Assembly: GCA_017499595.2 (NCBI GenBank)
Contig: CM039003.1
Span: forward strand, 2,232,001 to 2,296,000
Length of the DNA: 64,000 bases
Direction of reading: 5' to 3'
Source of the DNA: Psilocybe cubensis
Taxonomy: Eukaryota
The translations under genes were made by a program, and so were the position numbers. Below are positions 39,165 through 64,000 of the stretch, in pieces (within the stretch, counting starts at the first letter, position 1; every line of letters starts with the position of its first letter). Below the pieces are notes generated by a model that saw only the letters and a list, made by a program, of their open reading frames with translations, was not told the origin of the DNA and made no database searches.

Positions 39165-39227
39165 ATGCTTGTTTTTTCTGTCCTTCTTGACTCCCCTTTC
39201 CTGCACCCTTTCCCCAGGGCGTGTCTC

Positions 39228-40810: not shown

Positions 40811-41000
40811 GTCTCCGTACGTCCGCTGTTGTCTGCTTATTGTCTCATAACTTCCCTGGTTTTCGCTGTTATCACCGACCTCAGGCATCCCTCAACGTTA
40901 GATGTCGTCGGATGTACTGTGTCGCGCGTTTCCGTGTGTTTCTCAAATTTATGCTTTCATGCCACCTTCAAATCTTTTCTTCAACCATCATACCTCCTTA

Positions 41001-43330: not shown

Positions 43331-43370
43331 CATCCCTTATTGTCTTTTCGCCACATCGGGGGTTCCCACG

Positions 43371-46300
43371 CGAGACTGCCCAACCTCTGCCCCCTGTCCC
43401 CATCAACGAACTTAGGAATAGCGTTGCTCTCGACACTATTGCGTGTTATGGTCATTTTTTCAACATCACCACGCCCATTAATGCTGTCCGTCTGCACGCC
43501 TACCTCTTGCAACACCCGAATCCCGACTACGTGAATTCTGTCATCGATGGCATCCAGAATGGGTTCTGGCCGTGGGCCGACACGGCTCGCACCCACTTGC
43601 CTCCGACCCTCGACGTCACCGAATACCTCACCGAGGAACGCCACATCACCTTCGCCAGCGAGCAGCGCGACATCAAAATCTCAAAGGGGCGTTTTTCTCA
43701 ATCCTTCAGTTCCTTGCTTCCCGGGATGCTTGCAGTTCCAGTAGGGGTTGTACCCAAGCCTCACTCCCACAAACTCCGACTCGTTGTCAACCATAGCGCT
43801 GAACCTTTCGCACGAAACTCGTTGATCGACAAAACACTGGTTTCTGTACCTCTCGACAGCGTTCAGTCACTCGGTAGTGTCATCCTTCAGCTGCGTCGGG
43901 AGGCCGGTCCACACGCTGAGCTCGTCCTCTTCAAGAGTGATGTGTCCGAAGCTTACAGACTCTGTCCTATGGCCCCTTTGTGGCAGATCAAGCAGGTTGT
44001 CAAGATCAACGGCCTTTTCAACGTTGACCGTTGCAACAACTTTGGTAGCAGAGCAGGAGGGGGCGTGTGGGGTGCCATTTTCAGCCTCATCTTGTGGATC
44101 GCTACCTCGATCTTGCTCATCCCTGATCTCTTTGGTTACGTCGACGACGTTTTCTCAGTCACCCTAGCTGGCAACACTCTTTGGTACGCTCCGTACAATA
44201 AGATTCTGCCCGAACCTCAAGCCCGACTCCTCATGCTCTGGGACGAGCTGGGCGTTCCGCATGCCGAAGACAAACAGCTCTCCGGCACAGCCCTGACTAT
44301 CATCGGGTTTTACGTCGACACCGTGGCCATGACAATCACCATGCCCCTCGACTCCCTCCTCAACCTCATTCATGCGATCCGCGAGTTTGCCGTGATGGGT
44401 CGCCGTCCAACACTAGCTGATTACCAAGCAATCGCAGGGTGGATCAACTGGGCGTTAAACACCTATCCCCTCCTACGCCCCTGCCTGTCTAGCGTTTACG
44501 CAAAGATGGCAGGCAAGCACATTTCCTCTGCCAAAATCTACGTCAATAAGCGCGTCTGCCAGGAACTCATCTGGGCGGCAAACCACCTTGAGACATGCAA
44601 TGGCGTGCTGTTCCTGGAGTCCTTGGACTGGGACCTGGCTGAGGCCGACTACATCCTTCTGACGGACGCTTGTCTGTTTGGGATGGGCTTCTGGTCTCCA
44701 TGTCATGACTACGGTTTCCAATATCGCATCGTGTCCGCCTCACGCCCAATCTTCTACTGGGAGGCTTACACTGTCCTCTCCGCATTTGCTTGGATCCTCT
44801 CCTCCTGTTCTCCCCCACCCAAGCGCGTCGTCATCTACTGCGACAATACCAACACCGTAAATCTTTTCAGCACACTTCGCGCCACTCCGGACTACAACCC
44901 CATTGTCCTCACTGCCGCCGACCTCATGCTACGTTTCAACTGCCAGCTGCGAGTGGTGCATATCGCAGGCGGTCAGAACACAGTTGCAGACTCCATTTCA
45001 CGCTTCGACAATCAAGTCGCCCTCTCCTTCCGTCCCAATCTCCTGATTCGGAATTTTTTACCCCCACAGTTGATGCTGGGGGCAGATCTTTGATGGCCCC
45101 ACTGTCCCGCCCCAGGCAACCCGCAAGGATTGCCTGGTCGCTCGAGCGCTTACACCATGAACAAGCTATAGCTCTTGGATTTGCGCTCGAGCCCTCCTCC
45201 ATTGCCGCCTACTCTTCCGCCCTCCACTCTTACATCGCTTTTTGCAACCTCCACGCTTTCCCTATCGAACCTACCGCTGATACTCTCAGTTTTTTCATCG
45301 TGTTTATGTCCCACCACATCAAACCCTCTTCCGTGGCTGCCTACCTTTCCGGCATCTGCAGCCAGCTGGAGGCTTTTTACCCATCCATCCGCTCAACCCG
45401 TCAGTCACAACTCGTTCGCCGTACCCTCACAGGCTGCATCAAACTCCGTTCTGTCCCCACCACACGCCAGACGGCTGTTTCCTCAGAACAGATGCTAAGC
45501 CTCCACTCTCGCCTCATTCACTCCAATGACTACGACACGCTGCTCTTCCTGGCCATTTGCACCGCCGCATTCAACGGTCTCCTGCGCATGGGTGAGTGCG
45601 TGTGGCCGGACTCTCACCACCTGCGTGACTACCGTAAGGTTACCCGCCGCGCCACAGTGGAATCTACGCCATCCTCCTTCTCCTTCTTGCTACCTTCGCA
45701 CAAGGCAGATCGCCTTTACGAGGGAAATAAGGTGGTGATTCACGCCTCTAACGCAGGACAGGAAGCCCTTCTGGCTCTGCAGTTATACCTCGCACGCCGT
45801 GACAATGCTTTCCCTTTGAAACCCGAGTTATGGCTCCGTAGCGACGGCTCAGTCCCAACTCGTCGTTGGATGACATCCTTGCTCAAGTCATCCTTCCCAG
45901 GCCTCAGAATCTCAGGACACTCGTTTTGCCCCGGCGGCGCCACCTACCTGGCATTGCGCCGTGTCCCTTCCCATATCATCCAGGCGATGGGCCGTTGGAA
46001 GTCTGACACCTTCCAAACCTACATCCGAGAACACCCCGCCCTGTTGGCGGCACTTCTCTACACCTCCGTTGACCCTCGCACCACCCCATAGATGCTTGTT
46101 TTTTCTGTCCTTCTTGACTCCCCTTTCCTGCACCCTTTCCCCAGGGCGTGTCTCCGTACGTCCGCTGTTGTCTGCTTATTGTCTCATAACTTCCCTGGTT
46201 TTCGCTGTTATCACCGACCTCAGGCATCCCTCAACGTTAGATGTCGTCGGATGTACTGTGTCGCGCGTTTCCGTGTGTTTCTCAAATTTATGCTTTCATG

Positions 46301-48008
46301 CCACCTTCAAATCTTTTCTTCAACCATCATACCTCCTTACCGCTTTTTTGTACCTCCCGCAGTCGTTACACATTTTTTAGAGTACAAACTGCGCAAATAC
46401 ATCTCTTTTCTTTTTGCAGACGCCGCTGCTGATCACAGGGCGGGCGTCGTGCACCATCTACACAACATCGGGTGACCGTGCTTGAGAACATCTGAAAGCG
46501 TGATTAGTCGAGTTTAGATAATGTTTATTTACACAAGTCTAATCACGCCGAAGACCCGCTCGTTTCAGGGAGCCTCACCTCTCTGACCGCTTCCAGTTCA
46601 ACAAACACCAACATTCAAGGGTGGGCTCCCCCCAGTTGTCGACCCAACATGTACCACCCGACATGAATGTTTGAGCTTTGTCTGAACAGGAGAACCGCGC
46701 TCGCATGCTTTGCAGCCTTTTCTCCGACACGTCTTGTCTCTGCAACAAGAAGTGCATCTCGACGCACCTCAGCATAAAAGACCGCCTGGAGAATCTGGTT
46801 CTCGCACTTTTGCGTCCCCCGCTCTCCAGGTAAGCTTTTACTGCTCGAAACTCGCTCGACTTCATCACCGCTGACCTCTGTTTTGCGTCCCCCGCTCTCC
46901 AGATCACGGTCACCCGAGTCTCTCTGCTCTCTACCCACCATCCATCCCTACAGTCACCACCTCTCTCAAACAATCATGGCTTTGCCCGCTAGCGCTTACA
47001 GTGTCTCTCAAGACACCCGGATGCCCAAGTGCTCACCACGTCCCACATCCGTTCGGGCATCTCCCGCGTTCAGCTACGATTTACCTACACCCAACAATTC
47101 CGTCATACACCGTTACGGGCAGCGCACACCAACAGCGGGCGAACTCCTCGTACTACGCGAAGAACTAGAGGAGCAATTTAGGGACATGCCTGACATGGAG
47201 CTATTGGTTTACCTATTCGATTCCGTGTTATCGTGCCACTCAGAGTGGGGTTGGCGCGGTCGTTTCATTCGCCAGTTCTTTTATGACCTATTCTACGAAA
47301 TGCGTCGCCTAGGCTACTCCGAGTACGAATTGCTACGCTCTCTATTCCTGGCGCCCTGACGTACCCCAGATTTGCATGCGTTTCTTAGTACACACTGTCC
47401 CTTCACGCGTGCTACTCTTTTGTCCCGCTTTTTTGTACCTCCCGCAGTCGTTACACATTTTTTAGAGTACAAACTGCGCAAATACATCTCTTTTCTTTTT
47501 GCAGACGCCGCTGCTGATCACAGGGCGGGCGTCGTGCACCATCTACACAACATCGGGTGACCGTGCTTGAGAACATCTGAAAGCGTGATTAGTCGAGTTT
47601 AGATAATGTTTATTTACACAAGTCTAATCACGCCGAAGACCCGCTCGTTTCAGGGAGCCTCACCTCTCTGACCGCTTCCAGTTCAACAAACACCAACATT
47701 CAAGGGTGGGCTCCCCCCAGTTGTCGACCCAACATGTACCACCCGACATGAATGTTTGAGCTTTGTCTGAACAGGAGAACCGCGCTCGCATGCTTTGCAG
47801 CCTTTTTTCCGACACGTCTTGTCTCTGCAACAAGAAGTGCATCTCGACGCACCTCAGCATAAAAGACCGCCTGGAGAATCTGGTTCTCGCACTTTTGCGT
47901 CCCCCGCTCTCCAGGTAAGCTTTTACTGCTCGAAACTCGCTCGACTTCATCACCGCTGACCTCTGTTTTGCGTCCCCCGCTCTCCAGATCACGGTCACCC
48001 GAGTCTCT
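43371..48008 (+). mobile_element. Ngaro copy 2, 5'-truncated (RT/RH-YR-B-A-X-B-A)
   Basis: Near-identical to copy 1 from about 36443; RT frame open to 45093; YR 45093-46091 has HSFR changed to HSFC. Confidence 0.92.
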
Positions 48009-51000
48009 AAAAGCGGGACAAAAGAGTAGCACGCGTGAAGGGACAGTGTGTACTAAGAAACGCATGCAAATCTGGGGTACGTCAGGGCGCCAGGAATAGA
48101 GAGCGTAGCAATTCGTACTCGGAGTAGCCTAGGCGACGCATTTCGTAGAATAGGTCATAAAAGAACTGGCGAATGAAACGACCGCGCCAACCCCACTCTG
48201 AGTGGCACGATAACACGGAATCGAATAGGTAAACCAATAGCTCCATGTCAGGCATGTCCCTAAATTGCTCCTCTAGTTCTTCGCGTAGTACGAGGAGTTC
48301 GCCCGCTGTTGGTGTGCGCTGCCCGTAACGGTGTATGACGGAATTGTTGGGTGTAGGTAAATCGTAGCTGAACGCGGGAGATGCCCGAACGGATGTGGGA
48401 CGTGGTGAGCACTTGGGCATCCGGGTGTCTTGAGAGACACTGTAAGCGCTAGCGGGCAAAGCCATGATTGTTTGAGAGAGGTGGTGACTGTAGGGATGGA
48501 TGGTGGGTAGAGAGCAGAGAGACTTGGGTGACCGTGATCTGGAGAGCGGGGGACGCAAAACAGAGGTCAGCGGTGATGAAGTCGAGCGAGTTTCGAGCAG
48601 TAAAAGCTTACCTGGAGAGCGGGGGACGCAAAAGTGCGAGAACCAGATTCTCCAGGCGGTCTTTTATGCTGAGGTGCGTCGAGATGCACTTCTTGTTGCA
48701 GAGACAAGACGTGTCGGAGAAAAGGCTGCAAAGCATGCGAGCGCGGTTCTCCTGTTCAGACAAAGCTCAAACATTCATGTCGGGTGGTACATGTTGGGTC
48801 GACAACTGGGGGGAGCCCACCCTTGAATGTTGGTGTTTGTTGAACTGGAAGCGGTCAGAGAGGTGAGGCTCCCTGAAACGAGCGGGTCTTCGGCGTGATT
48901 AGACTTGTGTAAATAAACATTATCTAAACTCGACTAATCACGCTTTCAGATGTTCTCAAGCACGGTCACCCGATGTTGTGTAGATGGTGCACGACGCCCG
49001 CCCTGTGATCAGCAGCGGCGTCTGCAAAAAGAAAAGAGATGTATTTGCGCAGTTTGTACTCTAAAAAATGTGTAACGACTGCGGGAGGTACAAAAAAGCG
49101 GTAAGGAGGTATGATGGTTGAAGAAAAGATTTGAAGGTGGCATGAAAGCATAAATTTGAGAAACACACGGAAACGCGCGACACAGTACATCCGACGACAT
49201 CTAACGTTGAGGGATGCCTGAGGTCGGTGATAACAGCGAAAACCAGGGAAGTTATGAGACAATAAGCAGACAACAGCGGACGTACGGAGACACGCCCTGG
49301 GGAAAGGGTGCAGGAAAGGGGAGTCAAGAAGGACAGAAAAAACAAGCATCTATGGGGTGGTGCGAGGGTCAACGGAGGTGTAGAGAAGTGCCGCCAACAG
49401 GGCGGGGTGTTCTCGGATGTAGGTTTGGAAGGTGTCAGACTTCCAACGGCCCATCGCCTGGATGATATGGGAAGGGACACGGCGCAATGCCAGGTAGGTG
49501 GCGCCGCCGGGGCGAAACGAGTGTCCTGAGATTCCGAGGCCTGGGAAGGATGACTTGAGCAAGGATGTCATCCAACGACGAGTTGGGACTGAGCCGTCGC
49601 TACGGAGCCATAACTCGGGTTTCAAAGGGAAAGCATTGTCACGGCGTGCGAGGTATAACTGCAGAGCCAGAAGGGCTTCCTGTCCTGCGTTAGAGGTGTG
49701 AATCACCACCTTATTTCCCTCGTAAAGGCGATCTGCCTTGTGCGAAGGTAGCAAGAAGGAGAAGGAGGATGGCGTAGATTCCACTGTGGCGCGGCGGGTA
49801 ACCTTACGGTAGTCACGCAGGTGGTGAGAGTCCGGCCACACGCACTCACCCATGCGCAGGAGACCGTTGAATGCGGCGGTGCAAATGGCCAGGAAGAGCA
49901 GCGTGTCGTAGTCATTGGAGTGAATGAGGCGAGAGTGGAGGCTTAGCATCTGTTCTGAGGAAACAGCCGTCTGGCGTGTGGTGGGGACAGAACGGAGTTT
50001 GATGCAGCCTGTGAGGGTACGGCGAACGAGTTGTGACTGACGGGTTGAGCGGATGGATGGGTAAAAAGCCTCCAGCTGGCTGCAGATGCCGGAAAGGTAG
50101 GCAGCCACGGAAGAGGGTTTGATGTGGTGGGACATAAACACGATGAAAAAACTGAGAGTATCAGCGGTAGGTTCGATAGGGAAAGCGTGGAGGTTGCAAA
50201 AAGCGATGTAAGAGTGGAGGGCGGAAGAGTAGGCGGCAATGGAGGAGGGCTCGAGCGCAAATCCAAGAGCTATAGCTTGTTCATGGTGTAAGCGCTCGAG
50301 CGACCAGGCAATCCTTGCGGGTTGCCTGGGGCGGGACAGTGGGGCCATCAAAGATCTGCCCCCAGCATCAACTGTGGGGGTAAAAAATTCCGAATCAGGA
50401 GATTGGGACGGAAGGAGAGGGCAACTTGATTGTCGAAGCGTGAAATGGAGTCTGCAACTGTGTTCTGACCGCCTGCGATATGCACCACTCGCAGCTGGCA
50501 GTTGAAACGTAGCATGAGGTCGGCGGCAGTGAGGACAATGGGGTTGTAGTCCGGAGTGGCGCGAAGTGTGCTGAAAAGATTTACGGTGTTGGTATTGTCG
50601 CAGTAGATGACGACGCGCTTGGGTGGGGGAGAACAGGAGGAGAGGATCCAAGCAAATGCGGAGAGGACAGTGTAAGCCTCCCAGTAGAAGATTGGGTGTG
50701 AGGCGGACACGATGCGATATTGGAAACCGTAGTCATGACATGGAGACCAGAAGCCCATCCCGAACAGACAAGCGTCCGTCAGAAGGATGTAGTCGGCCTC
50801 AGCCAGGTCCCAGTCCAAGGACTCCAGGAACAGCACGCCATTGCATGTCTCAAGGTGGTTTGCCGCCCAGATGAGTTCCTGGCAGACGCGCTTATTGACG
50901 TAGATTTTGGCAGAGGAAATGTGCTTGCCTGCCATCTTTGCGTAAACGCTAGACAGGCAGGGGCGTAGGAGGGGATAGGTGTTTAACGCCCAGTTGATCC

Positions 51001-52300
51001 ACCCTGCGATTGCTTGGTAATCAGCTAGTGTTGGACGGCAACCCATCACGGCAAACTCGCGGATCGCATGAATGAGGTTGAGGAGGGAGTCGAGGGGCAT
51101 GGTGATTGTCATAGCCACGGTGTCGACGTAAAACCCGATGATAGTCAGGGCTGTGCCGGAGAGCTGTTTGTCTTCGGCATGCGGAACGCCCAGCTCGTCC
51201 CAGAGCATGAGGAGTCGGGCTTGAGGTTCGGGCAGAATCTTATTGTACGGGGCGTACCAAAGAGTGTTGCCAGCTAGGGTGACTGAGAAAACGTCGTCGA
51301 CGTAACCAAAGAGATCAGGGATGAGCAAGATCGAGGTAGCGATCCACAAGATGAGGCTGAAAATGGCGCCCCACACGCCCCCTCCTGCTCTGCTTCCCAA
51401 AGTTGTTGCAACGGTCAATGTTGAAAAGGCCGTTGATCTTGACAACCTGCTTGATCTGCCACAAAGGGGCCATAGGACAGAGTCTGTAAGCTTCGGACAC
51501 ATCGCTCTTGAAGAGGACGAGCTCAGCGTGTGGACCGGCCTCCCGACGCAGCCGAAGGATGACACTACCGAGTGACTGAACGCTGTCGAGAGGTACAGAA
51601 ACCAGTGTTTTGTTGATCAACGAGTTTCGTGCGAAAGGTTCAGCGCTATGGTTGACAACGAGTCGGAGTTTGTGGGAGTGAGGCTTGGGTACAACCCCTA
51701 CTGGAACTGCAAGCATCCCGGGAAGCAAGGAACTGAAGGATTGAGAAAAACGCCCCTTTGAGATTTTGATGTCGCGCTGCTCGCTGGCGAAGGTGATGTG
51801 GCGTTCCTCGGTGAGGTATTCGGTGACGTCGAGGGTCGGAGGCAAGTGGGTGTCAGGGCAACACTATAATCAGTGTGACAAGGCCACCAACAAAGATTAA
51901 GCAAGAGAGAAAGAGAGAGAGCAGAGGGAGAGTAAGAGAGCAAAGAGAGAATAAGAGAGTGAGAGAGATTCAATGGTTCTAAGAGATCACACCAATGATA
52001 GTGGATATCCTAAGAGATTGAAGCTGAAGCTACAGCTACCTACAAGTCCAGTATTTATACTCTACAGCTATGCTAGAATATTCTCTACATTACATCATAA
52101 AGAAAGGTTAAAGAATAAAAGTGACATCATATAGAAAAAGGATGAGTAAGACTAGGAATGATATAGAATTTACTAGAAAGAAGTGGAGCAAGAAGGCTGT
52201 GATGAAAGAAATAAACTATCTAATCAGATAATTGATAAGATAATGAAAGGATAAGATAATTCTGTGAAGATAAAGAGGGGAAACTGGAGAAACCCTGACA

Positions 52301-55300
52301 TCACCCCCTCTCTAAGGCACATTTTCCACAATGTGCACATGGATGGGTTAGTTTAGAGGGTTTAAGAAGAGGAGGAGGTTCAGTAAAGTTAATAATAGGA
52401 GTGAAAGAAAGTCTATCAAAGGTCATAGCAGAAATCCTTCTAGGTGCTGAAGGATGTTTGGCATGGAAGTCCTTGATAGCCTTAGAAGCATTTTTCAAAT
52501 GCTCTGCAGGCTCCCAAGTGCATTCTTCATTAGGATAGTTCTTCCACTTGACCAAATATTGAAGTTTGTTTCTAAAAAGTCTGCTGTCCTTGATAAATTC
52601 AACTTCCCACTCAGGATTTTCTCCTTGAATGACAGGAGGTGGTCTAGAAGCAGGCTTTCTTCCTACAATATCTGGGTGATAAGGTAGAAGTTTAACCACA
52701 TTGAACACTGGATGGATTTTCATGGTAGATGGCAGCTTAAGCTCATAGGCATTAGGGCTAATAATTTTGGTAATTTTGTAAGGCCCATATCTTTTATCAT
52801 CCAATTTCTTGGAGGGCCTATCAGTTTTGAGGTCCTTGCCATCCAACCATACCAAATCCCCAACTTTGTACTGAGTTGGAGTACCTCTGTGTCTATTATA
52901 GAATTTAGCCATATCATCAGCAGCTTTTCTAAGTGCAGACTCTGCTTCTTTCCTGGCTTCTTCCATATTTTTCACAAAGGTATCCACAGTGTCCATTTTA
53001 CTATCTCTAAGGGGTTCAGTGCCCATTCTGGGATGTCTGCCATTATTGAGCATGAATGGTGTCTGTCTGGTTGAAGCCTGAACTCTATTGTTATAAGAGA
53101 ATTCAGCTAGAGCTAACCATTCAACCCAATCATCTTGTCTATGGTTTATAAAGAGTCTAAGATACTGCTCAATTTCTTGGTTAACTCTTTCAGTCTGACC
53201 ATCAGTTTGGGGATGGTAGGCTGTAGATGAGGCTGTCTGGATACCAAGTATTGAGTTGAGTTCTTTCATAAACCTTGAGACAAACTGTGGACCTCTATCA
53301 CACAGAATTTTAATGGGTAAGCCATGGTGTTTCCAGACATAATCTCTGTATAGTCTGGCTGTCCCTTCAGAAGTGACTTCATCTGTAGTAGGGATAATGT
53401 GGATCATTTTACTAAGTCTATCCACAACCACCATAATGGCATTATACCCTTGACATTCTGGTAACCCCATAATAAAGTCCACAGAGATGCATTGCCAGAC
53501 ATCAGAGGGAATCTCAGTAGGAATTAAAAGGCCAAGAGGTTTGGCTGGAAAGGTTTTGGTTCTGTTGCATCTATCACAACCTCTGGTATAGGCTGCAATA
53601 AAATGTGACATTCCTGGCCACCAATAATTCCTAGAGACTAGCTCAATTGTCTTCCATTTCCCTGGATGTCCAGCAATGAAGGCATCATGGTGCAGTTCCA
53701 CAATCTTTCTTCTAAGATCTTTGTCCTTGGGAACATACACCTTCCCCCTGTAGAGAATAAGGCCTTGTTCTTCTGACCATTCCTGTCCTTCAATCTTCTT
53801 GGTAGAAGATTTCTTGAGCTCCTGAACTGCCTTGACCACCTTTTCATCCATCTCCTTAGCTTCTCTAATCTTCTTAAGAAGATCATTTTCTGCACCAGTA
53901 ATGGTAGCATGACCCTGCTTGAGAGCCTGGATTTTAAAGTAGGAAGGTTTGAGGAGAACTACATTTTGGTTATCATTCTCTCCCTTTTTATGATCTGGTC
54001 TCCTAGACAAAGCATCTGGCTTAAGAGATCTTTTACCAGGCCTATGATGAAGAGTAAAATCAAATCTGGACAGGAAGAGTGACCATCTGGCTTGCCTTCT
54101 GCTGAGCTTTTGGGCAACCATAAAGTACTCTAAGTTTTTGTGGTCTGTCCAAATCTCAAAGGAATGTTGGGTTCCTTCAAGATAATGTCTCCATTCATCT
54201 AGTGCTCTGATAATAGCCAGCATCTCTTTGTCATGGATCTCATAATTCCTTTCTACTTCAGATAGACTCTTAGACATAAAGGCTACAGGATGCCATTTCC
54301 CATCTGATCCTTCCTGAGATAAAACAGCCCCAGTAGCATAATCTGAACTGTCTGCTTCAACTTTATATGGCTTGTTATCATCAGGGAAAATCAAGACAGG
54401 TGAAGAAGTGACTTTCTTCTTTAACTGGTCAAAGGCTTCCTGCTGTCTAAGACTCCATCTCCAGACTGTTCCTTTCTTTGTCAATTCATGAAGGGGCTTA
54501 GCAATGTCTGCAAAATCCTCTATGAACCTTCTATAAAAATTAACAAATCCCAAGAATGATTGGACATCCTTGACATTTTCAGGTTCAGGCCATTTAGAAA
54601 CTCCCTCTACCTTGACAGGATCCATCTCAATCCTGCCTTGTGAAATGATTAGTCCAAGATATTCAATCTTTTTCTTTTCAAATTCACATTTCTCTGCTTT
54701 AAGGTAGAGTTTGTTCTGTTCTAAGATTTGCAGAACTTGCTTGACTACCTCTCTATGATGATCAAGAGTCTCAGTGAAAATTAAAATGTCATCCATGTAG
54801 ACAATGACAACATTTCCATCAATGAGCTCAATAAAGATATCATTCATCATAGTTTGGAAGGTAGCAGGACTATTGGTTAAACCAAAGAACATGACCAATG
54901 GTTCAAACAGCCCTCTATTGGTTCTAAAGGCTGCTTTCCATTCATCTCCTTTTTTGATTCTGACATTGTTAAATCCCCACCTAACATCAAGTTTGGTGAA
55001 GTATTTGGCTTTGCTGAGTTTGGTGATAATGTCAGAAATCAATGGAAGGGGGTAGGAGTTCTTGATGGTCATTTCATTCAGTTTCCTATAGTCCTGGACA
55101 AGCCTAAGAGATCCATCCTTCTTCTTGACAAAAAATACAGGGGAGGCCATAGGTGACTTGGAGGGTCTAATCCTGCCAGACTTCAGATTTTCCTCTAAAA
55201 AGGCATCAAGTTCCTTTTGTTCATTGGGAGAAAGAGGATAAATCTTGGATCTGTAAGGTTCAGAACCAGGTTTCAGCTCAATAGCATGATCCCAAGGCTT

Positions 55301-56187
55301 TCTGTCTGGTAGCCTATCAAAAGATTCCTTTGAAAAAACACCTTTAAACTGATGATAGTGCTTAGGAACAGTTTCTTCAAAGGTTTTCTTAGGGGAATCA
55401 GCTTGCTGATGAGACTCTTCTGCTAATCTTTGAGACATAGTAGAAGTAGCATTAATAGACTGCTTCTGAGGATGAAGGTATGAAATAAAAATTCTATCCT
55501 CAGGCTCAATCTCAGAATCAGAAGAATCTTCAATAGAATCATCTTCTTCTTCATCAAATTGAGGGAGTTTCCTCCTTTTGACTGCAGCTATTCTCTGCCT
55601 CTTTCTTCTGGCTCTTTTGGCTTCCATTTGGCAGTCAGAGGGACATCTAATAAACTGGACATCCCCTGTCTTCCAATCAACATCTGGATTATGGTGCCAA
55701 AGCCAAGTATGTCCAATGATAGCAGATTTGTCTCCCAAGTCACAAACAGCAAAGGTGGCCCTTTCTGTATGGTTTTTGTGTACCATAATTAAGTCTACTT
55801 CCTCATGGATAGAGCCACTCTTGTTGAGGGTACCATCAACATTATAGACTGGAATGGCTCTAGGAAGTTTCCTTGTGTTGAGATTATGATACTTCACAAA
55901 CCAGAATGCAGAAAGAGGCCAGTAGCTCCAGAATCAAGCAAAGCATCAACAGATAACCTTTTCTCTGTGTCCATTGTCTTTAAGATGACAGACAAATGGG
56001 TAGAGGTTTTAGGATTATGGTTGAGGATGTAGATCTTTTCAGGGAAGGTAGAAAGAGAGGAAGAAGAAGACATGATTTCTGCACCAGAATCTGAAGACTG
56101 AGGATCAAGTCTGTCAATTTCATTTTCTAGTACATTAAATCTATTCCATTGGGACATGTCTTTCACCAATGGTGCTTCTAAAAATTT
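52301..56187 (-). CDS. pol: Gypsy Pol (PR-RT-RH-IN-chromodomain), with a 1-nt frameshift near 55900
   Basis: LLDSGAT protease, YMDD RT, ADSS RNase H, HHCC and DRG integrase, GPY, C-terminal WEVEFIKDSR..YLVKWKNY..TWEP chromodomain. Confidence 0.95.
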
Positions 56188-57287
56188 TTCTTTTCCTCAT
56201 CTTTCTGCTCCTTGCCTTCCAAGATTAATTTCCCAAAGTAGTCAGCCAGTTCTTCATGGGTCATAGCATTGATGTTAACTGATGACCTGCAGTTTACAGC
56301 CTTATGACCAGGCTTTCTGCACTTGAAGCAAACAATTGGCCTGACTGACTTCCATCCAGAGTCAACCTCCATGGGAACTACATCTGGTTGCTTTGCCTGA
56401 GCACCAAAGGTCCTTGAGCTGCTGTTGGAAAAGACTGGAGGATTTGGAGTAGGCTTAGGAACAGCCTTGGGAGTTGGGGCTTTAAGGAAGGGAGAAGAAG
56501 AGGAGGAGGAAAGAGACTTGGTAAAGGCCTCACTCTGTCTCCACTGCCTATCTAGCCTAGTACTCCATTTAATCCATCCATCCAAGGTTTTGGGCATGTC
56601 AGGAACATAGTAGACTGCATTCCTGAGATTTTCATTAAGCCCAGCCTTGAATTGGTCTACCAAAGCAGCATCATTATACCCAGTATCTGAGATCAGAGCC
56701 CTGAAGCTAGCAACATACTCATCAGCAGTCTGTCTGCCTTGCTTGAGCATGTGCATTTTATGCTTAGCTGTGTTGGAGGGGTCTGGATCTGCAAACACTT
56801 CCCTAAATTCATAAACAAAGTCAGCCCAAAGACCTTCTTGGGACTGAGCATTGTCTATTACTTTAGTCTTCTCATATGCCCACTTCCCAGCAGTACCTCC
56901 TTTCATATGAGATAGAGCACAAATAACTTTCTGAAAGTCATCTGTAATCCCTTTCCCATAGAAATATAATTTAAGCTGACTGAGGAAGTTTTCTGCCTTC
57001 TCCATAGAACCATCAAATGGATCTGGAGGTGAGACTTTAATGGCAGAGTGTGAACAGGAAGGGGCAACATGAGGGGTAGGGAAAGAGTGAATATCTAGAG
57101 CAGCAGGTGGTGGTGGTGGTGGTGGTGATGGTGACTGACTGACTGGTTGCTGAGGGTGTGGTGGAGTGGATAATGACTGCTGCTGCTGTCTAAGAAAATT
57201 CAACTCTTGGGTAAGGAGCTGGACCTGATGCATGAGCTCTTCCACAGAAGGAGTGGTGGGAGGCAATTGGGAGGGGTCCATGTCCAT
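56178..57287 (-). CDS. gag: Gypsy Gag
   Basis: PDPFDG, LKQGRQTADEYVASF, PMEVD, CFKCRKPGHKAVNC zinc knuckle. Confidence 0.95.
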   Translation of the reverse strand: MDMDPSQLPPTTPSVEELMHQVQLLTQELNFLRQQQQSLSTPPHPQQPVSQSPSPPPPPPPAALDIHSFPTPHVAPSCSHSAIKVSPPDPFDGSMEKAENFLSQLKLYFYGKGITDDFQKVICALSHMKGGTAGKWAYEKTKVIDNAQSQEGLWADFVYEFREVFADPDPSNTAKHKMHMLKQGRQTADEYVASFRALISDTGYNDAALVDQFKAGLNENLRNAVYYVPDMPKTLDGWIKWSTRLDRQWRQSEAFTKSLSSSSSSPFLKAPTPKAVPKPTPNPPVFSNSSSRTFGAQAKQPDVVPMEVDSGWKSVRPIVCFKCRKPGHKAVNCRSSVNINAMTHEELADYFGKLILEGKEQKDEEKKNF

Positions 57288-59995
57288 GGGTAGGGGTAGG
57301 TAGGCTCTCTGATGTGTGTGTGGGAGAAGCTATCTACTGAAAGTGCCCTTGAAACTATACTAAGTATTCTAAAAAAATATCTATCTACTGGATACCCAGT
57401 TGTCACACCACTCAGGGCTCTAAACCTAGGATCACAGGGTTACTGGATATTTCCTAGACCACCAAAAACAGAACACTAGTAGGACTGTGTCTGCCCCAAC
57501 AGTTGGTATCCCTATCTACTAAGTTCACACACAGCACACAACAGAGAGTAGGAAAGATGATGAGCCAAAGGTCTTGAGGAAAGGTCTTGAGGAGGATGTT
57601 GAAGATTGGTGGAGATGTAGAGATTGGTAAGAAGATTGGTGAAGAGGTTGATGAAGAGGTTGGTGGGTTGGAAGTGGAGGAAGAAGGTTGAGGTAATGGT
57701 GTTGAAGAGGTTGAAGAGGTGAAGAGTTTGGTGTTGAAAGAGAGATGGTGGAGTTGTCTTGAGAGAGCTTCAATCTTCTGTCAGGGCAACACTATAATCA
57801 GTGTGACAAGGCCACCAACAAAGATTAAGCAAGAGAGAAAGAGAGAGAGCAGAGGGAGAGTAAGAGAGCAAAGAGAGAATAAGAGAGTGAGAGAGATTCA
57901 ATGGTTCTAAGAGATCACACCAATGATAGTGGATATCCTAAGAGATTGAAGCTGAAGCTACAGCTACCTACAAGTCCAGTATTTATACTCTACAGCTATG
58001 CTAGAATATTCTCTACATTACATCATAAAGGAAGGTTAAAGAATAAAAGTGACATCATATAGAAAAAGGATGAGTAAGACTAGGAATGATATAGAATTTA
58101 CTAGAAAGAAGTGGAGCAAGAAGGCTGTGATGAAAGAAATAAACTATCTAATCAGATAATTGATAAGATAATGAAAGGATAAGATAATTCTGTGAAGATA
58201 AAGAGGGGAAACTGGAGAAACCCTGACAGTGGGTGCGAGCCGTGTCGGCCCACGGCCAGAACCCATTCTGGATGCCATCGATGACAGAATTCACGTAGTC
58301 GGGATTCGGGTGTTGCAAGAGGTAGGCGTGCAGACGGACAGCATTAATGGGCGTGGTGATGTTGAAAAAATGACCATAACACGCAATAGTGTCGAGAGCA
58401 ACGCTATTCCTAAGTTCGTTGATGGGGACAGGGGGCAGAGGTTGGGCAGTCTCGGTGAAACGGGCAAGAGAAACATGTGCAGAAGTGTTATCCTCGGACC
58501 AATAGAGTGAGCGTAAGAAAAGAGGGCGCGAAGAAAGGTGCGAGAAACGATACACAGGGGCGAAGGGATTGGTGACGAAACGTCGTACATCATTTGCGGG
58601 TACACTTGTCGGCCACATGTCCTGTTGTCCTACAGGCGCTACAGATGTGGGCGTAGTTGCATGTTGCCTGTGTGTTGGGACAGTTTCCGGCGTTGTAGCG
58701 ACGACATGCCTCTCGTCTTGCCCTAGAGGTGTGCGAACCTGGGGCACCAACTGAGCGCGACCTGCTTTCCCTGGAATTCTTCGCGGTCGCAGAGCTGTGA
58801 GCACCTCCGTGTTGAAGCCAGAGGACGCCGAGGTCCGTGTAGCTGGCGTGGTCGTCGAGGAGCAGGTCCCGTCGGTTTGAGGCTCTAAGTCGGACCGCTT
58901 TGTCGTAGTTGATGACGTTCTCGTGGAGGTAAGAGGGGGTTGAACGAAACAGTTGAAGGATGAAATCTCCGTATGCGCTGAGCTCGCGGTGTCTGTGGGG
59001 GAACACGAACAGTACCGCTCTCGCGTATTGGTTCCACGCGATTGTCCAATCAGAGTGTTCGCGGACTGACTTTGATGGTGTGGCCGCTCCGACAACGACC
59101 TCAAGGGAACCGATCTTCTCCTTCCTCTCCTCGTCGATGGTGACTGTGTACAGGGAGCTGAATATCGCGTCGAAGTCCGCGCATTTCGAAAGTAATATTC
59201 GTTTCCACTGCTCAACGGTGAGCCCAGGTCTCTTCGCGGAGTTAAGGAGCGACGCCTCGGCAGCCTTGTAGTCCTTCGCGATGGTAGCGAGTATGGCCTG
59301 GGTCTGGAGTAGTTCGGGGGAAAGGTTGGAAGGTGTGAGCGCCTCCTGGATCTCCCACGGAAACGTGCCTCCCTCAACGTGTCGTTTTCGCGGCGGTAGC
59401 TCCTGGTCGGCGAAGAAATCCTCAACAGGAGATCTCGCCCGCTTGGACGCGCAGTCGATAGGGGTCTCGATGGTATGAGATGATTCCGGTTCATCGTCTC
59501 CCTCTTCCTCCGATTCTCCTTCGATACTTCCTGCACTTGACTTAGTAGCTCCTCCGCCTCGTCGTAATGCGTCTTTGCGTAATCCATCGAAGTTGTCAAG
59601 TATCGCTAGATAAGAATGTATGGCTTCGATAACGTGTTGCGAATGGTCGTCGGGATAAACATTGGCGAGGGTCGACTGAATAAGAATGAGCGTGTCTGCC
59701 TTCTCAACTGAACCGTTCTTGTAATTCTCGACGTGCTTATCGCACTCCGCCGAAGTTTCTTCCGATAGAACGAAGGAGGGGGTTAGACGTTGTTCGGGTG
59801 TGGCTTCGTGCTCCGAAAGGTCACTCATAAGAGTACAAAAGAATGACAAGTTCGAGGATGGCCGGTTCGCGAGAACGAGGATGCGAGTATAGACACGATA
59901 CGAGTTAAAGTAGAGAGCAGAGAGACTCGGGTGACCGTGATCGGGACAGTGTGTACTAAGAAACGCATGCAAATCTGGGGTACGTCAGGGCGCCA

Positions 59996-62900
59996 GCAGC
60001 CTCATCTTGTGGATCGCTACCTCGATCTTGCTCATCCCTGATCTCTTTGGTTACGTCGACGACGTTTTCTCAGTCACCCTAGCTGGCAACACTCTTTGGT
60101 ACGCCCCGTACAATAAGATTCTGCCCGAACCTCAAGCCCGACTCCTCATGCTCTGGGACGAGCTGGGCGTTCCGCATGCCGAAGACAAACAGCTCTCCGG
60201 CACAGCCCTGACTATCATCGGGTTTTACGTCGACACCGTGGCCATGACAATCACCATGCCCCTCGACTCCCTCCTCAACCTCATTCATGCGATCCGCGAG
60301 TTTGCCGTGATGGGTCGCCGTCCAACACTAGCTGATTACCAAGCAATCGCAGGGTGGATCAACTGGGCGTTAAACACCTATCCCCTCCTACGCCCCTGCC
60401 TGTCTAGCGTTTACGCAAAGATGGCAGGCAAGCACATTTCCTCTGCCGAAATCTACGTCAATAAGCGCGTCTGCCAGGAACTCATCTGGGCGGCAAACCA
60501 CCTTGAGACATGCAATGGCGTGCTGTTCCTGGAGTCCTTGGACTGGGACCTGGCTGAGGCCGACTACATCCTTCTGACGGACGCTTGTCTGTTCGGGATG
60601 GGCTTCTGGTCTCCATGTCATGACTACGGTTTCCAATATCGCATCGTGTCCGCCTCACACCCAATCTTCTACTGGGAGGCTTACACTGTCCTCTCCGCAT
60701 TTGCTTGGATCCTCTCCTCCTGTTCTCCCCCACCCAAGCGCGTCGTCATCTACTGCGACAATACCAACACCGTAAATCTTTTCAGCACACTTCGCGCCAC
60801 TCCGGACTACAACCCCATTGTCCTCACTGCCGCCGACCTCATGCTACGTTTCAACTGCCAGCTGCGAGTGGTGCATATCGCAGGCGGTCAGAACACAGTT
60901 GCAGACTCCATTTCACGCTTCGACAATCAAGTTGCCCTCTCCTTCCGTCCCAATCTCCTGATTCGGAATTTTTTACCCCCACAGTTGATGCTGGGGGCAG
61001 ATCTTTGATGGCCCCACTGTCCCGCCCCAGGCAACCCGCAAGGATTGCCTGGTCGCTCGAGCGCTTACACCATGAACAAGCTATAGCTCTTGGATTTGCG
61101 CTCGAGCCCTCCTCCATTGCCGCCTACTCTTCCGCCCTCCACTCTTACATCGCTTTTTGCAACCTCCACGCTTTCCCTATCGAACCTACCGCTGATACTC
61201 TCAGTTTTTTCATCGTGTTTATGTCCCACCACATCAAACCCTCTTCCGTGGCTGCCTACCTTTCCGGCATCTGCAGCCAGCTGGAGGCTTTTTACCCATC
61301 CATCCGCTCAACCCGTCAGTCACAACTCGTTCGCCGTACCCTCACAGGCTGCATCAAACTCCGTTCTGTCCCCACCACACGCCAGACGGCTGTTTCCTCA
61401 GAACAGATGCTAAGCCTCCACTCTCGCCTCATTCACTCCAATGACTACGACACGCTGCTCTTCCTGGCCATTTGCACCGCCGCATTCAACGGTCTCCTGC
61501 GCATGGGTGAGTGCGTGTGGCCGGACTCTCACCACCTGCGTGACTACCGTAAGGTTACCCGCCGCGCCACAGTGGAATCTACGCCATCCTCCTTCTCCTT
61601 CTTGCTACCTTCGCACAAGGCAGATCGCCTTTACGAGGGAAATAAGGTGGTGATTCACGCCTCTAACGCAGGACAGGAAGCCCTTCTGGCTCTGCAGTTA
61701 TACCTCGCACGCCGTGACAATGCTTTCCCTTTGAAACCCGAGTTATGGCTCCGTAGCGACGGCTCAGTCCCAACTCGTCGTTGGATGACATCCTTGCTCA
61801 AGTCATCCTTCCCAGGCCTCGGAATCTCAGGACACTCGTTTCGCCCCGGCGGCGCCACCTACCTGGCATTGCGCCGTGTCCCTTCCCATATCATCCAGGC
61901 GATGGGCCGTTGGAAGTCTGACACCTTCCAAACCTACATCCGAGAACACCCCGCCCTGTTGGCGGCACTTCTCTACACCTCCGTTGACCCTCGCACCACC
62001 CCATAGATGCTTGTTTTTTCTGTCCTTCTTGACTCCCCTTTCCTGCACCCTTTCCCCAGGGCGTGTCTCCGTACGTCCGCTGTTGTCTGCTTATTGTCTC
62101 ATAACTTCCCTGGTTTTCGCTGTTATCACCGACCTCAGGCATCCCTCAACGTTAGATGTCGTCGGATGTACTGTGTCGCGCGTTTCCGTGTGTTTCTCAA
62201 ATTTATGCTTTCATGCCACCTTCAAATCTTTTCTTCAACCATCATACCTCCTTACCGCTTTTTTGTACCTCCCGCAGTCGTTACACATTTTTTAGAGTAC
62301 AAACTGCGCAAATACATCTCTTTTCTTTTTGCAGACGCCGCTGCTGATCACAGGGCGGGCGTCGTGCACCATCTACACAACATCGGGTGACCGTGCTTGA
62401 GAACATCTGAAAGCGTGATTAGTCGAGTTTAGATAATGTTTATTTACACAAGTCTAATCACGCCGAAGACCCGCTCGTTTCAGGGAGCCTCACCTCTCTG
62501 ACCGCTTCCAGTTCAACAAACACCAACATTCAAGGGTGGGCTCCCCCCAGTTGTCGACCCAACATGTACCACCCGACATGAATGTTTGAGCTTTGTCTGA
62601 ACAGGAGAACCGCGCTCGCATGCTTTGCAGCCTTTTCTCCGACACGTCTTGTCTCTGCAACAAGAAGTGCATCTCGACGCACCTCAGCATAAAAGACCGC
62701 CTGGAGAATCTGGTTCTCGCACTTTTGCGTCCCCCGCTCTCCAGGTAAGCTTTTACTGCTCGAAACTCGCTCGACTTCATCACCGCTGACCTCTGTTTTG
62801 CGTCCCCCGCTCTCCAGATCACGGTCACCCGAGTCTCTCTGCTCTCTACCTACCATCCATCCCTACAGTCACCACCTCTCTCAAACAATCATGGCTTTGC

Positions 62901-63930
62901 CCGCTAGCGCTTACAGTGTCTCTCAAGACACCCGGATGCCCAAGTGCTCACCACGTCCCACATCCGTTCGGGCATCTCCCGCGTTCAGCTACGATTTACC
63001 TACACCCAACAATTCCGTCATACACCGTTACGGGCAGCGCACACCAACAGCGGGCGAACTCCTCGTACTACGCGAAGAACTAGAGGAGCAATTTAGGGAC
63101 ATGCCTGACATGGAGCTATTGGTTTACCTATTCGATTCCGTGTTATCGTGCCACTCAGAGTGGGGTTGGCGCGGTCGTTTCATTCGCCAGTTCTTTTATG
63201 ACCTATTCTACGAAATGCGTCGCCTAGGCTACTCCGAGTACGAATTGCTACGCTCTCTATTCCTGGCGCCCTGACGTACCCCAGATTTGCATGCGTTTCT
63301 TAGTACACACTGTCCCTTCACGCGTGCTACTCTTTTGTCCCGCTTTTTTGTACCTCCCGCAGTCGTTACACATTTTTTAGAGTACAAACTGCGCAAATAC
63401 ATCTCTTTTCTTTTTGCAGACGCCGCTGCTGATCACAGGGCGGGCGTCGTGCACCATCTACACAACATCGGGTGACCGTGCTTGAGAACATCTGAAAGCG
63501 TGATTAGTCGAGTTTAGATAATGTTTATTTACACAAGTCTAATCACGCCGAAGACCCGCTCGTTTCAGGGAGCCTCACCTCTCTGACCGCTTCCAGTTCA
63601 ACAAACACCAACATTCAAGGGTGGGCTCCCCCCAGTTGTCGACCCAACATGTACCACCCGACATGAATGTTTGAGCTTTGTCTGAACAGGAGAACCGCGC
63701 TCGCATGCTTTGCAGCCTTTTCTCCGACACGTCTTGTCTCTGCAACAAGAAGTGCATCTCGACGCACCTCAGCATAAAAGACCGCCTGGAGAATCTGGTT
63801 CTCGCACTTTTGCGTCCCCCGCTCTCCAGGTAAGCTTTTACTGCTCGAAACTCGCTCGACTTCATCACCGCTGACCTCTGTTTTGCGTCCCCCGCTCTCC
63901 AGATCACGGTCACCCGAGTCTCTCTGCTCT
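59996..63930 (+). mobile_element. Ngaro copy 4, 5'-truncated (partial RT/RH-YR-B-A-X-B-A)
   Basis: Starts mid-RT; RT to 61008, YR 61008-62006, repeats to about 63930. Confidence 0.92.
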
Positions 63931-64000
63931 CTTCAAGCAGAAACTCAAGATACATGCTACACAGTAAATAGAGTAATTTCCTCATTATCCAGGTTCAAAC

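What the first reader, a model, noticed from the sequence alone, without database searches (positions are those of the whole stretch)
51851..58228. A 6.4-kb retrotransposon with apparently zero CpG dinucleotides
Seen: reading every line I found no CG in the LTRs, leader, gag or pol, while GC, CC and GG are common and CG resumes at once in the flanking Ngaro sequence. The ORFs are long, the catalytic motifs intact and the LTRs nearly identical, so this is not decay of this copy after insertion. Inference: a lineage purged of CpG that escapes CpG methylation and deamination while using a chromodomain to insert into methylated repeats.
Basis: partly seen in the sequence, partly recalled or inferred. 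Interest (0 to 1): 0.85.

Follow-up and report, generated by a model that had tools for sequence, protein, structure and literature searches.

The report
Retrotransposon family with no CpG
A young, multi-copy, essentially intact Ty3/gypsy retrotransposon in a Psilocybe genome contains not a single CG dinucleotide, so it offers nothing to the CG-only DNA methylation that mushroom-forming fungi use against transposons.

Summary
Confirmed. There is no CpG between 51837 and 58236 (6,399 bp). About 267 are expected, and the next longest CpG-free gap in the window is 173 bp.

The element, 51851-58228 on the minus strand, is a complete chromovirus:
- 450-bp LTRs, 449/450 identical, with a 5-bp target duplication
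- gag, a -1 frameshift site, PR-RT-RNaseH-IN-chromodomain
- Tf1-like self-priming

The avoidance is built into the coding:
- All 92 Arg codons are AGR and there are no NCG codons.
- C-ending codons are 0 of 229 before G, against 321 of 712 elsewhere.

TpG/CpA is barely raised and conserved Arg residues are kept, so this copy did not decay. Raw reads from another run show a high-depth family and rule out an assembly artefact. 93% of reads lack the window copy's one frameshift.

The flanking young repeat keeps normal CpG, but its copies differ mainly by C>T at CpG. Among 93 relatives with DNA, low CpG goes with stop codons, and none is both intact and CpG-free.

Best reading: CpG-directed methylation and deamination of repeats, plus lineage selection, purged this lineage, and it is now unmethylatable at CG. 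Host methylation, the element's expression and the DNA of close relatives could not be examined. New variant of a known kind.

The parts
51846..51850 (.). Target-site duplication GTGGG (left copy)
   Evidence: the same 5 bases flank both LTR ends
51851..52300 (-). 3' LTR (450 bp, TG..CA), 0 CpG
   Evidence: 449/450 identical to the other LTR; 13.2 CpG expected, 0 seen
52301..52315 (-). Polypurine tract overlapping the pol stop codon, directly upstream of the 3' LTR
   Evidence: purine run ending at the LTR edge
52301..55933 (-). pol frame (1,210 codons, no stop): C-terminal part of protease, RT, RNase H, integrase, SH3-like domain, chromodomain
52460..52609 (-). Chromodomain (pol residues 1109-1158)
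   Evidence: PF00385, E 2.3e-15
53210..53725 (-). Integrase zinc-binding and catalytic core domains (residues 737-908)
   Evidence: PF17921 6.5e-20, PF00665 3.3e-10
54062..54382 (-). RNase H domain (residues 518-624)
   Evidence: PF17917 4.9e-39
54644..55129 (-). Reverse transcriptase domain (residues 269-430)
   Evidence: PF00078 1e-37
55894..56196 (-). N-terminal part of the pol/protease frame with the D-S-G active-site motif. It is cut off from the rest of pol in this copy by a 1-base loss at 55897/55898.
   Evidence: relatives have one continuous frame; 1,316 of 1,414 X19 reads carry one more base
56181..56187 (-). Candidate -1 ribosomal frameshift heptamer (A AAT TTT in the gag frame), directly before the gag stop
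   Evidence: the frames of gag and the PR ORF differ by -1. Inferred, not tested.
56178..57287 (-). gag (369 codons from ATG): Ty3-type capsid plus CCHC zinc knuckle
57330..57778 (-). Untranslated leader, 0 CpG (18.8 expected)
57766..57776 (-). Primer-binding site of the self-priming type (11 nt), 2 nt downstream of the 5' LTR
   Evidence: perfect complement of 57943-57953; paired in both the MFE and the centroid fold
57779..58228 (-). 5' LTR, 0 CpG
57943..57953 (-). Predicted first 11 nt of the transcript (start of R), complementary to the PBS
   Evidence: it lies 34 nt downstream of a TATAAA box (57980-57987)
58229..58233 (.). Target-site duplication GTGGG (right copy)

Best explanation
This is a recently inserted copy of an active, multi-copy Ty3/gypsy chromovirus of a Psilocybe genome. 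Its whole lineage has been recoded to contain no CpG. Shown: the anatomy, the total absence of CpG in coding and non-coding parts, its realisation through context-dependent synonymous codon choice, and its presence across the family. Also shown: CpG-targeted C>T mutation acts on neighbouring repeats of the same genome. Inferred: in Agaricomycetes, repeats are methylated almost only at CG, and methylated CGs mutate fast. Every CpG in a transposon is therefore both a handle for silencing and a hypermutable site that kills daughter copies (CGN Arg changes to stop, Cys, Trp, His or Gln). Over many rounds of copying, only sublineages that had replaced CpGs by harmless alternatives (AGR for Arg, T instead of C before G) kept producing functional copies. 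The end state is an element that cannot carry CG methylation in its promoter or body and has no CpG hotspots left. The chromodomain probably still steers integration into heterochromatic repeats.
For: 1. Absolute zero: 0 of about 267 expected CpGs over 6,399 bp. The neighbours are at o/e 0.9-1.0.
2. Built-in avoidance: 92 of 92 Arg codons are AGR. TCG, CCG, ACG and GCG do not occur. C-ending pyrimidine-synonymous codons are 0 of 229 before a G-starting codon and 321 of 712 before other codons (Fisher P 5e-50). Non-coding parts hold 0 against about 45 expected.
3. Not decay of this copy: the pol frame of 1,210 codons is open. Invariant Arg columns of the 26-sequence alignment are kept. The LTRs are 449/450 identical and the TSD is intact. 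TpG+CpA o/e is 1.18, against 1.12 and 1.08 in the two flanks.
4. Family trait:
- X19 raw reads give about 1,300-1,700x depth.
- Hundreds of loose ends at the LTR edges have about 0.38 consensus agreement, which indicates many insertion sites.
- 58% of laid reads are 99% or more identical.
- The intact protease frame is in 93% of reads.
- None of the 40 differences shown creates a CpG.
- In the roughly 87%-identical X13 family, 0 of 20 new C/G letters forms CpG (4.9 expected, P 0.003).
5. The host mutates CpG in repeats. Among copies of the flanking repeat that are 99% or more identical, 20-24 of 41 variable sites are CpG transitions (5.7-8.4-fold per site, P 2e-7 or less) and 38 of 41 are C>T-type.
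6. The element is an outlier among relatives. In 93 relatives with DNA, CpG o/e correlates with fewer stop codons (Spearman -0.68). All 35 stop-free ones have o/e 0.41 or more, and all 21 below 0.41 carry 3-17 stops.
7. Literature (passages read): Basidiomycota methylate mainly CG on transposons via DNMT1-RFD and DNMT5 (PMC13297926). Gypsy families in Pleurotus are 26-59% methylated and repressed (PMC6191308). CpG-biased C>T is seen in Agaricomycotina transposons (PMC3318451, PMC6980582).
Against: 1. No methylome, chromatin or RNA data for this host were examined, so both methylation of the neighbours and expression of the element are unshown.
2. The CpG-rich flanking repeat has also multiplied recently (5 or more copies, 99% or more identical, in 30 kb). 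Losing CpG is therefore not needed for success in this genome.
3. The family still accumulates mostly C>T-type changes at non-CpG sites (178 of 272 listed places in X19), so it is not shielded from cytosine mutation in general.
4. Selection against the last few CpGs should be weak, so an exact zero is not easily explained by silencing evasion alone.
5. Dead fragments in other fungal contigs also reach 0-1 CpG over 1.3-2.8 kb. Mutation alone can therefore reach the end state where function does not matter.
6. The DNA of the close relatives (62-89% protein identity) could not be fetched, and only 40 of 370 read differences were displayed. Family-wide absence and the age of the purge rest on partial data.
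Confidence: 0.6

Rival explanations
1. Passive mutational exhaustion only. The lineage has simply lived long under CpG-directed mutation of repeats. Purifying selection on the proteins did the rest, and being CpG-free brings no benefit in expression or spread.
For: CpG-targeted C>T acts in the flanking repeat. Dead gypsy fragments in other contigs reach 0-1 CpG over 1.3-2.8 kb. A CpG-rich family thrives next door.
Against: All 21 relatives with o/e below 0.41 are riddled with stops. This one is intact, young and abundant. Replacing 92 of 92 Arg codons by AGR needs transversions that CpG deamination does not supply, so sorting among sublineages took place. A 6-8-fold CpG bias gives an equilibrium well above zero.
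Confidence: 0.25
2. CpG is avoided because of a defence acting on the RNA or cDNA: a CpG-sensing RNA-binding factor like vertebrate ZAP, or a CpG-preferring deaminase acting during retrotransposition. DNA methylation would not be the cause.
For: Variants in the family are strand-asymmetric. Element-sense C>T occurs at 123 places against 55 for G>A, and T>C at 45 against 23 for A>G. The flanking retroelement-like repeat shows the same direction, 11 against 3. This points to mutation on a single-stranded intermediate.
Against: No such CpG-specific factor is known in fungi (my recall; none appeared in the 8 literature searches). U3, which matters as DNA promoter, is as CpG-free as the transcribed part. 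The asymmetric changes seen are at non-CpG sites.
Confidence: 0.08
3. Recent horizontal arrival from a donor whose genome or transposons are extremely CpG-poor, so that the composition says nothing about this host.
For: The element's GC (41%) differs from that of the flanks (52-56%). Near-identical copies occur in runs carrying at least five organism codes.
Against: The closest proteins are from Psilocybe and other Agaricales, the same order as the host. No relative with DNA is below o/e 0.11. A donor explanation only moves the question elsewhere.
Confidence: 0.05
4. Artefact of assembly, base calling at methylated CpG, or chemical conversion.
For: None found.
Against: Independent Illumina reads match at 99% or more, with only three near-fixed substitutions among the differences shown and none at a would-be CpG. 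Other cytosines are untouched (GpC o/e 0.82, CC 1.21). The zero starts and stops exactly at the LTR ends.
Confidence: 0.01

Closest known systems
Chromoviruses of the Tf1/sushi type (Ty3/gypsy, Metaviridae) of fungi, such as Tf1 of fission yeast, MAGGY and MarY1 (names recalled, not from a call)
   Same: LTRs with TG..CA, a 5-bp duplication, gag with a CCHC knuckle, the order PR-RT-RNaseH-IN, and a C-terminal chromodomain. An 11-nt self-primer complementary to the PBS.
   Different: Total absence of CpG. 93 relatives with DNA have CpG o/e 0.15-1.28 in pol, and the intact ones 0.41 or more.
CpG-depleted, methylated transposons of Agaricomycetes (CpG-biased C>T; PMC3318451, PMC6980582, PMC6191308, passages read)
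   Same: Same host group and the same presumed pressure. CpG-targeted C>T is seen here in the flanking repeat.
   Different: Those are decaying copies with partial depletion and stop codons. This one is intact, young, multi-copy and at exactly zero, achieved by synonymous recoding.
Paucity of the RIP-like target TpCpG at non-synonymous positions in Microbotryum transposons (mentioned in PMC3318451, passage read)
   Same: A transposon lineage shaped to lack the sequence that the host defence mutates.
   Different: There it is a partial bias at one trinucleotide in another subphylum. Here every CpG is removed in all contexts, including non-coding DNA.
CpG suppression in small DNA viruses and RNA viruses of vertebrates (PMC2396429 and PMC11670115 seen in search listings only; ZAP recalled)
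   Same: A parasite genome that avoids CpG in response to a host system that reads CpG.
   Different: Those are depleted, not CpG-free. The host factors differ, and none is known in fungi.
Engineered CpG-free transgenes and vectors for durable expression (PMC8819515 seen in a search listing only; otherwise recalled)
   Same: Complete removal of CpG by synonymous recoding to avoid silencing.
   Different: Those are man-made. This is a natural, autonomous element.

Membership tests
Ty3/gypsy LTR retrotransposon (Metaviridae) | Two LTRs ending TG..CA, flanked by a short target duplication | tested here: met
   450-bp LTRs, 449/450 identical, 5-bp GTGGG duplication
Ty3/gypsy LTR retrotransposon (Metaviridae) | Domain order PR-RT-RNaseH-IN (integrase after RT) | tested here: met
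   D-S-G protease motif upstream; RVT_1 at residues 269-430, RNase H at 518-624, integrase at 737-908
Ty3/gypsy LTR retrotransposon (Metaviridae) | gag with capsid domain and CCHC zinc knuckle | tested here: met
   PF19259 3.3e-10, PF03732 3.7e-09, PF00098 3.5e-04
Chromovirus | Chromodomain at the C-terminus of integrase | tested here: met
   PF00385 at residues 1109-1158, E 2.3e-15
Chromovirus | Chromodomain directs integration to H3K9-methylated chromatin | not testable with these tools
   Only one insertion seen, inside a repeat cluster. The flanks of other copies are visible only as mixed loose ends.
Tf1/sushi-type self-priming elements | The first bases of the transcript are complementary to the PBS next to the 5' LTR; no tRNA-type PBS | tested here: met
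   11/11 complement. It starts 34 nt after a TATAAA box and is paired in both the MFE and the centroid fold. The transcript start itself was not mapped.
Neurospora-type RIP product | Excess TpA, loss of CpA/TpG, and many stop codons | tested here: not met
   TpA o/e 0.69, CpA 1.22, TpG 1.15; pol frame open
Copy decayed by 5mC deamination after insertion | CpG replaced by TpG/CpA, Arg changed to Cys/Trp/His/Gln/stop, LTRs diverged at former CpGs | tested here: not met
   the one LTR difference is A/G outside any CpG-derived pair; conserved Arg kept as AGR; TpG+CpA o/e 1.18
Unmethylated, transcriptionally active element | No 5mC on the element and RNA present | not testable with these tools
   No methylome was available. 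Absence of CG methylation follows from the absence of CG. Non-CG methylation and expression were not examined.

The most novel reading that the evidence does not exclude
A retrotransposon lineage has won a round of the arms race with its host by deleting from its entire 6.4-kb genome the only dinucleotide that the host's DNA-methylation defence can mark. This is natural whole-genome synonymous recoding. It lets the element sit in heterochromatic repeats, stay transcribable and produce undamaged daughter copies. Such CpG-free lineages may be spreading among Psilocybe and related agarics.
Probability: 0.4. Interest if true: 0.85.

Novelty: new variant of a known kind. Interest (0 to 1): 0.72.

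Why it matters
CpG depletion of transposons is usually read as a scar of silencing on dead copies. Here the extreme end state is found in a young, abundant and essentially intact element. That turns the scar into a possible counter-defence.

It gives a clean natural experiment on three questions:
- Is CG methylation needed to silence transposons in basidiomycetes?
- Can non-CG marks or H3K9 methylation substitute for it?
- How strongly does CpG hypermutability limit a transposon's lifespan?

It also offers a natural CpG-free promoter and coding unit for expression tools in mushrooms. Surveys that use CpG o/e as a proxy for transposon age or methylation would misjudge such families.

Tried and rejected
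- Whole genome: none is held for this window, so family copies could not be counted or compared directly.
Two viral-contig scans and the prokaryote-genome scan, which picks up contaminant contigs, gave 58% or less. The clade at 62-89% identity stayed protein-only.
- Arg-exchange test as a proxy for codon use in that clade. In 5 close pairs, R/K made up 43 of 63 exchanges, with H 1, C 0 and W 0. In 236 control pairs of CpG-bearing relatives the shares were K 20%, Q 16%, H 10%, C 9%, W 8% and stop 11% (AGR-type against CGN-type partners 46:10 versus 167:267, P 7e-10). I give it little weight, because the close clade consists of intact predicted proteins and the controls are decaying copies, so selection confounds it. 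A column-wise version was uninformative.
- Expression: no RNA holder was listed for the element. Run X14 is only guessed to be RNA, so nothing is concluded.
- Read laying showed only 40 of 370 substitutions, so the full test of whether variants ever create CpG could not be done.
- Other copies or other gypsy elements in the window: none.
- Flank identity: no significant Pfam family on 12 repeat-region ORFs. A 13th ORF scanned, 39546-40535, matched a KH domain and looks like a host gene. The atlas gave only weak RT leads (0.85-0.88). There were 3 unnamed homologues.
- Earlier notes of this scan: 4 look-ups, nothing relevant.
- Literature: 8 searches found no report of an intact CpG-free retrotransposon in fungi. 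Subscription journals and supplements were not searchable.
Full report
**1. The observation**

A direct count finds no CG between the CpG at 51837 and the one at 58236, a gap of 6,399 bp.
- The reported interval 51851-58228 (6,378 bp; 1,211 C, 1,405 G) should hold about 267 CpGs by base composition.
- GpC occurs 218 times (o/e 0.82).
- The window as a whole has 3,135 CpGs (o/e 0.86), and its next longest CpG-free gap is 173 bp.
- The 2-kb bins outside the element range from o/e 0.65 to 1.18. The sequences touching the element are at 0.91 and 1.00.
- The zero begins and ends at the LTR edges.
- Even at the strongest depletion seen in any relative (o/e 0.11), the probability of zero is about 2e-13.

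**2. What the element is**

It lies on the minus strand and is a complete Ty3/gypsy chromovirus.
- The LTRs (51851-52300 and 57779-58228) are 450 bp, start TG and end CA, and are 449/450 identical.
- A 5-bp duplication, GTGGG, flanks them.
- gag (56178-57287) has a Ty3-type capsid domain and a CCHC knuckle.
- The pol frame (52301-55933, 1,210 codons without a stop) has RT, RNase H, the integrase zinc-binding and core domains, the Tf2-type SH3 domain and a C-terminal chromodomain.
- The protease active-site motif lies in a short frame (55894-56196) that overlaps the end of gag in the -1 frame.
- A heptamer of the classical slippery form sits in the right register directly before the gag stop. 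I infer -1 frameshifting from this.
- A purine tract abuts the 3' LTR.
- There is no tRNA-type primer site. Instead, 11 nt placed two bases after the 5' LTR (57766-57776) are perfectly complementary to 11 nt inside the LTR (57943-57953).
- That LTR segment begins 34 nt after a TATAAA box. Both the MFE and the centroid fold of the predicted 5' RNA pair the two segments. This is the self-priming arrangement known from Tf1 (recalled).

In this copy the protease is split by a 1-base loss in a short homopolymer at 55897/55898.
- Relatives have one continuous frame.
- 1,316 of 1,414 reads of an independent run carry the extra base.
- The family is therefore intact, and the break is private to this copy or to its assembly.

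**3. Host**

An exon of the ergothioneine synthase gene at 5080-5739 is 99% identical to the Psilocybe cubensis protein. The nearest named pol relatives are seven proteins of Psilocybe cf. subviscida. They sit in a cluster whose representative is 89% identical to this pol.

**4. How the absence is achieved**

Counts:
- All 92 Arg codons are AGA or AGG.
- TCG, CCG, ACG and GCG do not occur.
- Codons that could end in C or T end in C in 321 of 712 cases when the next codon does not start with G, and in 0 of 229 cases when it does (P 5e-50).
- Non-coding DNA is equally clean: 13.3, 18.8 and 13.2 CpGs are expected in the 5' LTR, the leader and the 3' LTR, and none is seen.

TpG+CpA is only slightly raised: o/e 1.18, against 1.12 and 1.08 in the two flanks. 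Arg is retained at the invariant Arg columns of a 26-sequence alignment. The sequence is therefore not a CpG-rich element that recently deaminated. It is a long-adapted CpG-free coding.

**5. It is a family trait and not an artefact**

The element's words are held by 16 listed runs from 8 studies, and 11 runs hold half of them or more. I laid raw Illumina reads of X19 and contigs of three other runs on the element.

Results for X19:
- 70,876 reads were laid. 41,209 are 99% or more identical and 26,628 are 95-99% identical.
- Summed depth is roughly 1,300-1,700x along the interior.
- Several hundred loose ends at each LTR edge have a consensus agreement of only about 0.38, which indicates many different insertion sites.
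- No single-copy stretch was laid, so copy number is uncalibrated.

Only 40 of 370 substitutions were displayed. None of them creates a CpG.

Thirty-eight of the 40 belong to a high-depth sister family in run X13 that is about 87% identical.
- At the 20 shown positions where that family has a new C or G, about 4.9 CpGs are expected by chance and none is formed (P 0.003).
- One adjacent double change turns CA into TG. That is the path expected if a transient CpG is quickly removed, but it is a single case.

An artefact from miscalled methylated CpGs is excluded. Among the best-supported differences shown, the Illumina reads carry only three near-fixed substitutions.

**6. What the host does to repeats**

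From 34.5 kb onward the window is a nest of copies of another repeat that are 99% or more identical. The element is inserted into one of them.
- Across 6.4 kb of that family, 41 sites vary.
- 20 are CpG to TpG/CpA, and 4 more are the same change with opposite polarity.
- 14 are other C>T or G>A changes, and 3 are transversions.
- CpG positions are 14% of the sequence, so the excess is 5.7-8.4-fold per site (P 2e-7 or less).
- That family still has CpG o/e near 1 because it is very young.

CpG-directed cytosine mutation of repeats is thus active in this genome. This matches what is reported for Agaricomycotina transposons (PMC3318451 and PMC6980582, passages read). It also matches the CG-specific methylation of transposons by DNMT1-RFD and DNMT5 in Basidiomycota (PMC13297926 and PMC6191308, passages read). 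Methylation in this host was not measured.

**7. Relatives**

Proteins up to 89% identical are numerous: 3,643 hits among the 8,000 candidates scored. Most lie on 5-6-kb contigs, but their DNA could not be fetched. DNA was obtained only for relatives at 60% identity or less.

In the 93 loci with a pol match of 900 residues or more:
- CpG o/e ranges from 0.15 to 1.28 and correlates with fewer in-frame stops (Spearman -0.68, P 6e-14).
- All 35 stop-free relatives have o/e 0.41 or more.
- All 21 relatives below 0.41 carry 3-17 stops.

Four of the kb-scale CpG-free stretches in these contigs (L055, L063, L012, L004) are dead gypsy fragments with 2-22 stops. Three others (L027, L032, L123) had no gag or pol match. 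Mutation can therefore drive corpses to zero CpG. The window's element is the only one that combines zero CpG with an open pol frame.

**8. Mechanism**

The best-supported account:
- Repeats in these fungi are methylated at CG, and methylated CGs mutate fast.
- Each CpG is then a handle for silencing and a site that ruins daughter copies.
- Sublineages that had swapped CpGs for harmless alternatives out-reproduced the rest until none was left.
- The element now cannot be CG-methylated and has no CpG hotspots.

Steps shown:
- the zero and its codon-level realisation
- its presence across the family
- CpG-biased mutation in neighbouring repeats
- the contrast with relatives

Steps inferred:
- methylation of repeats in this host
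- the benefit in expression
- the role of the chromodomain

Points against, or left open:
- The CpG-rich neighbour has also multiplied recently.
- The family still accumulates mostly C>T-type changes (178 of 272 listed places).
- Selection on the last few CpGs should be weak.

**9. Rivals**

| Explanation | Weight |
|---|---|
| Best account (section 8) | 0.60 |
| Purely passive exhaustion | 0.25 |
| CpG-directed RNA or cDNA defence | 0.08 |
| Horizontal arrival | 0.05 |
| Artefact | 0.01 |

The strand-asymmetric variant spectrum suggests the RNA or cDNA rival.

**10. Comparison and novelty**

By every structural criterion tested, the element is a member of the chromoviruses, with Tf1-like priming. 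What is new is the complete and evidently functional absence of CpG.

Eight full-text searches found CpG-biased decay of fungal transposons, target paucity in Microbotryum, and CpG suppression in vertebrate viruses. They found no intact CpG-free retrotransposon. Subscription journals and supplements were outside the search.

I rate it a new variant of a known kind, with interest 0.72.

Noticed in passing
window 34556-51850 and 58229-63932: A nest of at least five copies of a GC-rich (52-56%), CpG-normal repeat, 99% or more identical and partly inverted. A 432-bp unit recurs 8 times. Twelve of its ORFs gave no significant Pfam family, the largest ORF has only 3 unnamed homologues, and the atlas gave only weak RT leads. 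Its class is not established.
   Followed up: partly
window 51801-58278 (reads of run X19) and 43367-48008: Variants are strand-asymmetric. In the gypsy family, element-sense C>T occurs at 123 places against 55 for G>A, and T>C at 45 against 23 for A>G. In the flanking repeat, non-CpG C>T is 11 against 3 for G>A on its sense strand. This suggests cytosine damage or copying errors on a single-stranded sense intermediate. Overall, GC>AT changes outnumber AT>GC 178 to 68.
   Followed up: no
runs X1-X16 (coded), element 51851-58228: Three quarters or more of the element's sampled words are held by runs carrying five different organism codes, and smaller shares by five more. Either the family is shared by close relatives or strains, or it has moved between species.
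   Followed up: no
run X13, e.g. window 53129-53184, 54554-54635, 54815-55007: A sister family about 87% identical appears at very high word depth (about 3,000) in one run of another organism code. It is also without CpG at the positions shown.
   Followed up: partly
L055:7973-10785, L063:3451-5526, L012:5381-6717, L004:5696-7031: Metagenome contigs of other agaric-like genomes hold dead gypsy fragments at 34-35% GC with 0-1 CpG over 1.3-2.8 kb and 2-22 stop codons. Complete CpG exhaustion of old repeats seems common in this group of fungi.
   Followed up: partly
window 57566, 57370, 57719 and 57831-57838 (leader and LTR): Family copies differ by small indels in the leader and LTR. Examples are a 13-base insertion after 57566 in 345 of 1,644 reads and a 1-base insertion after 57370 in 585 of 1,374 reads. 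There are also several internal deletion joints at low read counts. This points to subfamilies and deleted copies.
   Followed up: no
window 3546-5739: Exons of an ergothioneine biosynthesis gene (Egt1-type, methyltransferase plus sulfatase-modifying-factor-like domain), 99% identical to the Psilocybe cubensis protein. The left 34 kb of the window is ordinary gene space at 44-46% GC with CpG o/e about 0.9.
   Followed up: partly
L090-L169 (prokaryote genome collection): Ninety stretches in bacterial and archaeal assemblies and MAGs encode fungal- or plant-type gypsy pol genes, on short, mostly low-coverage contigs. These are almost certainly eukaryotic contamination of those records.
   Followed up: no
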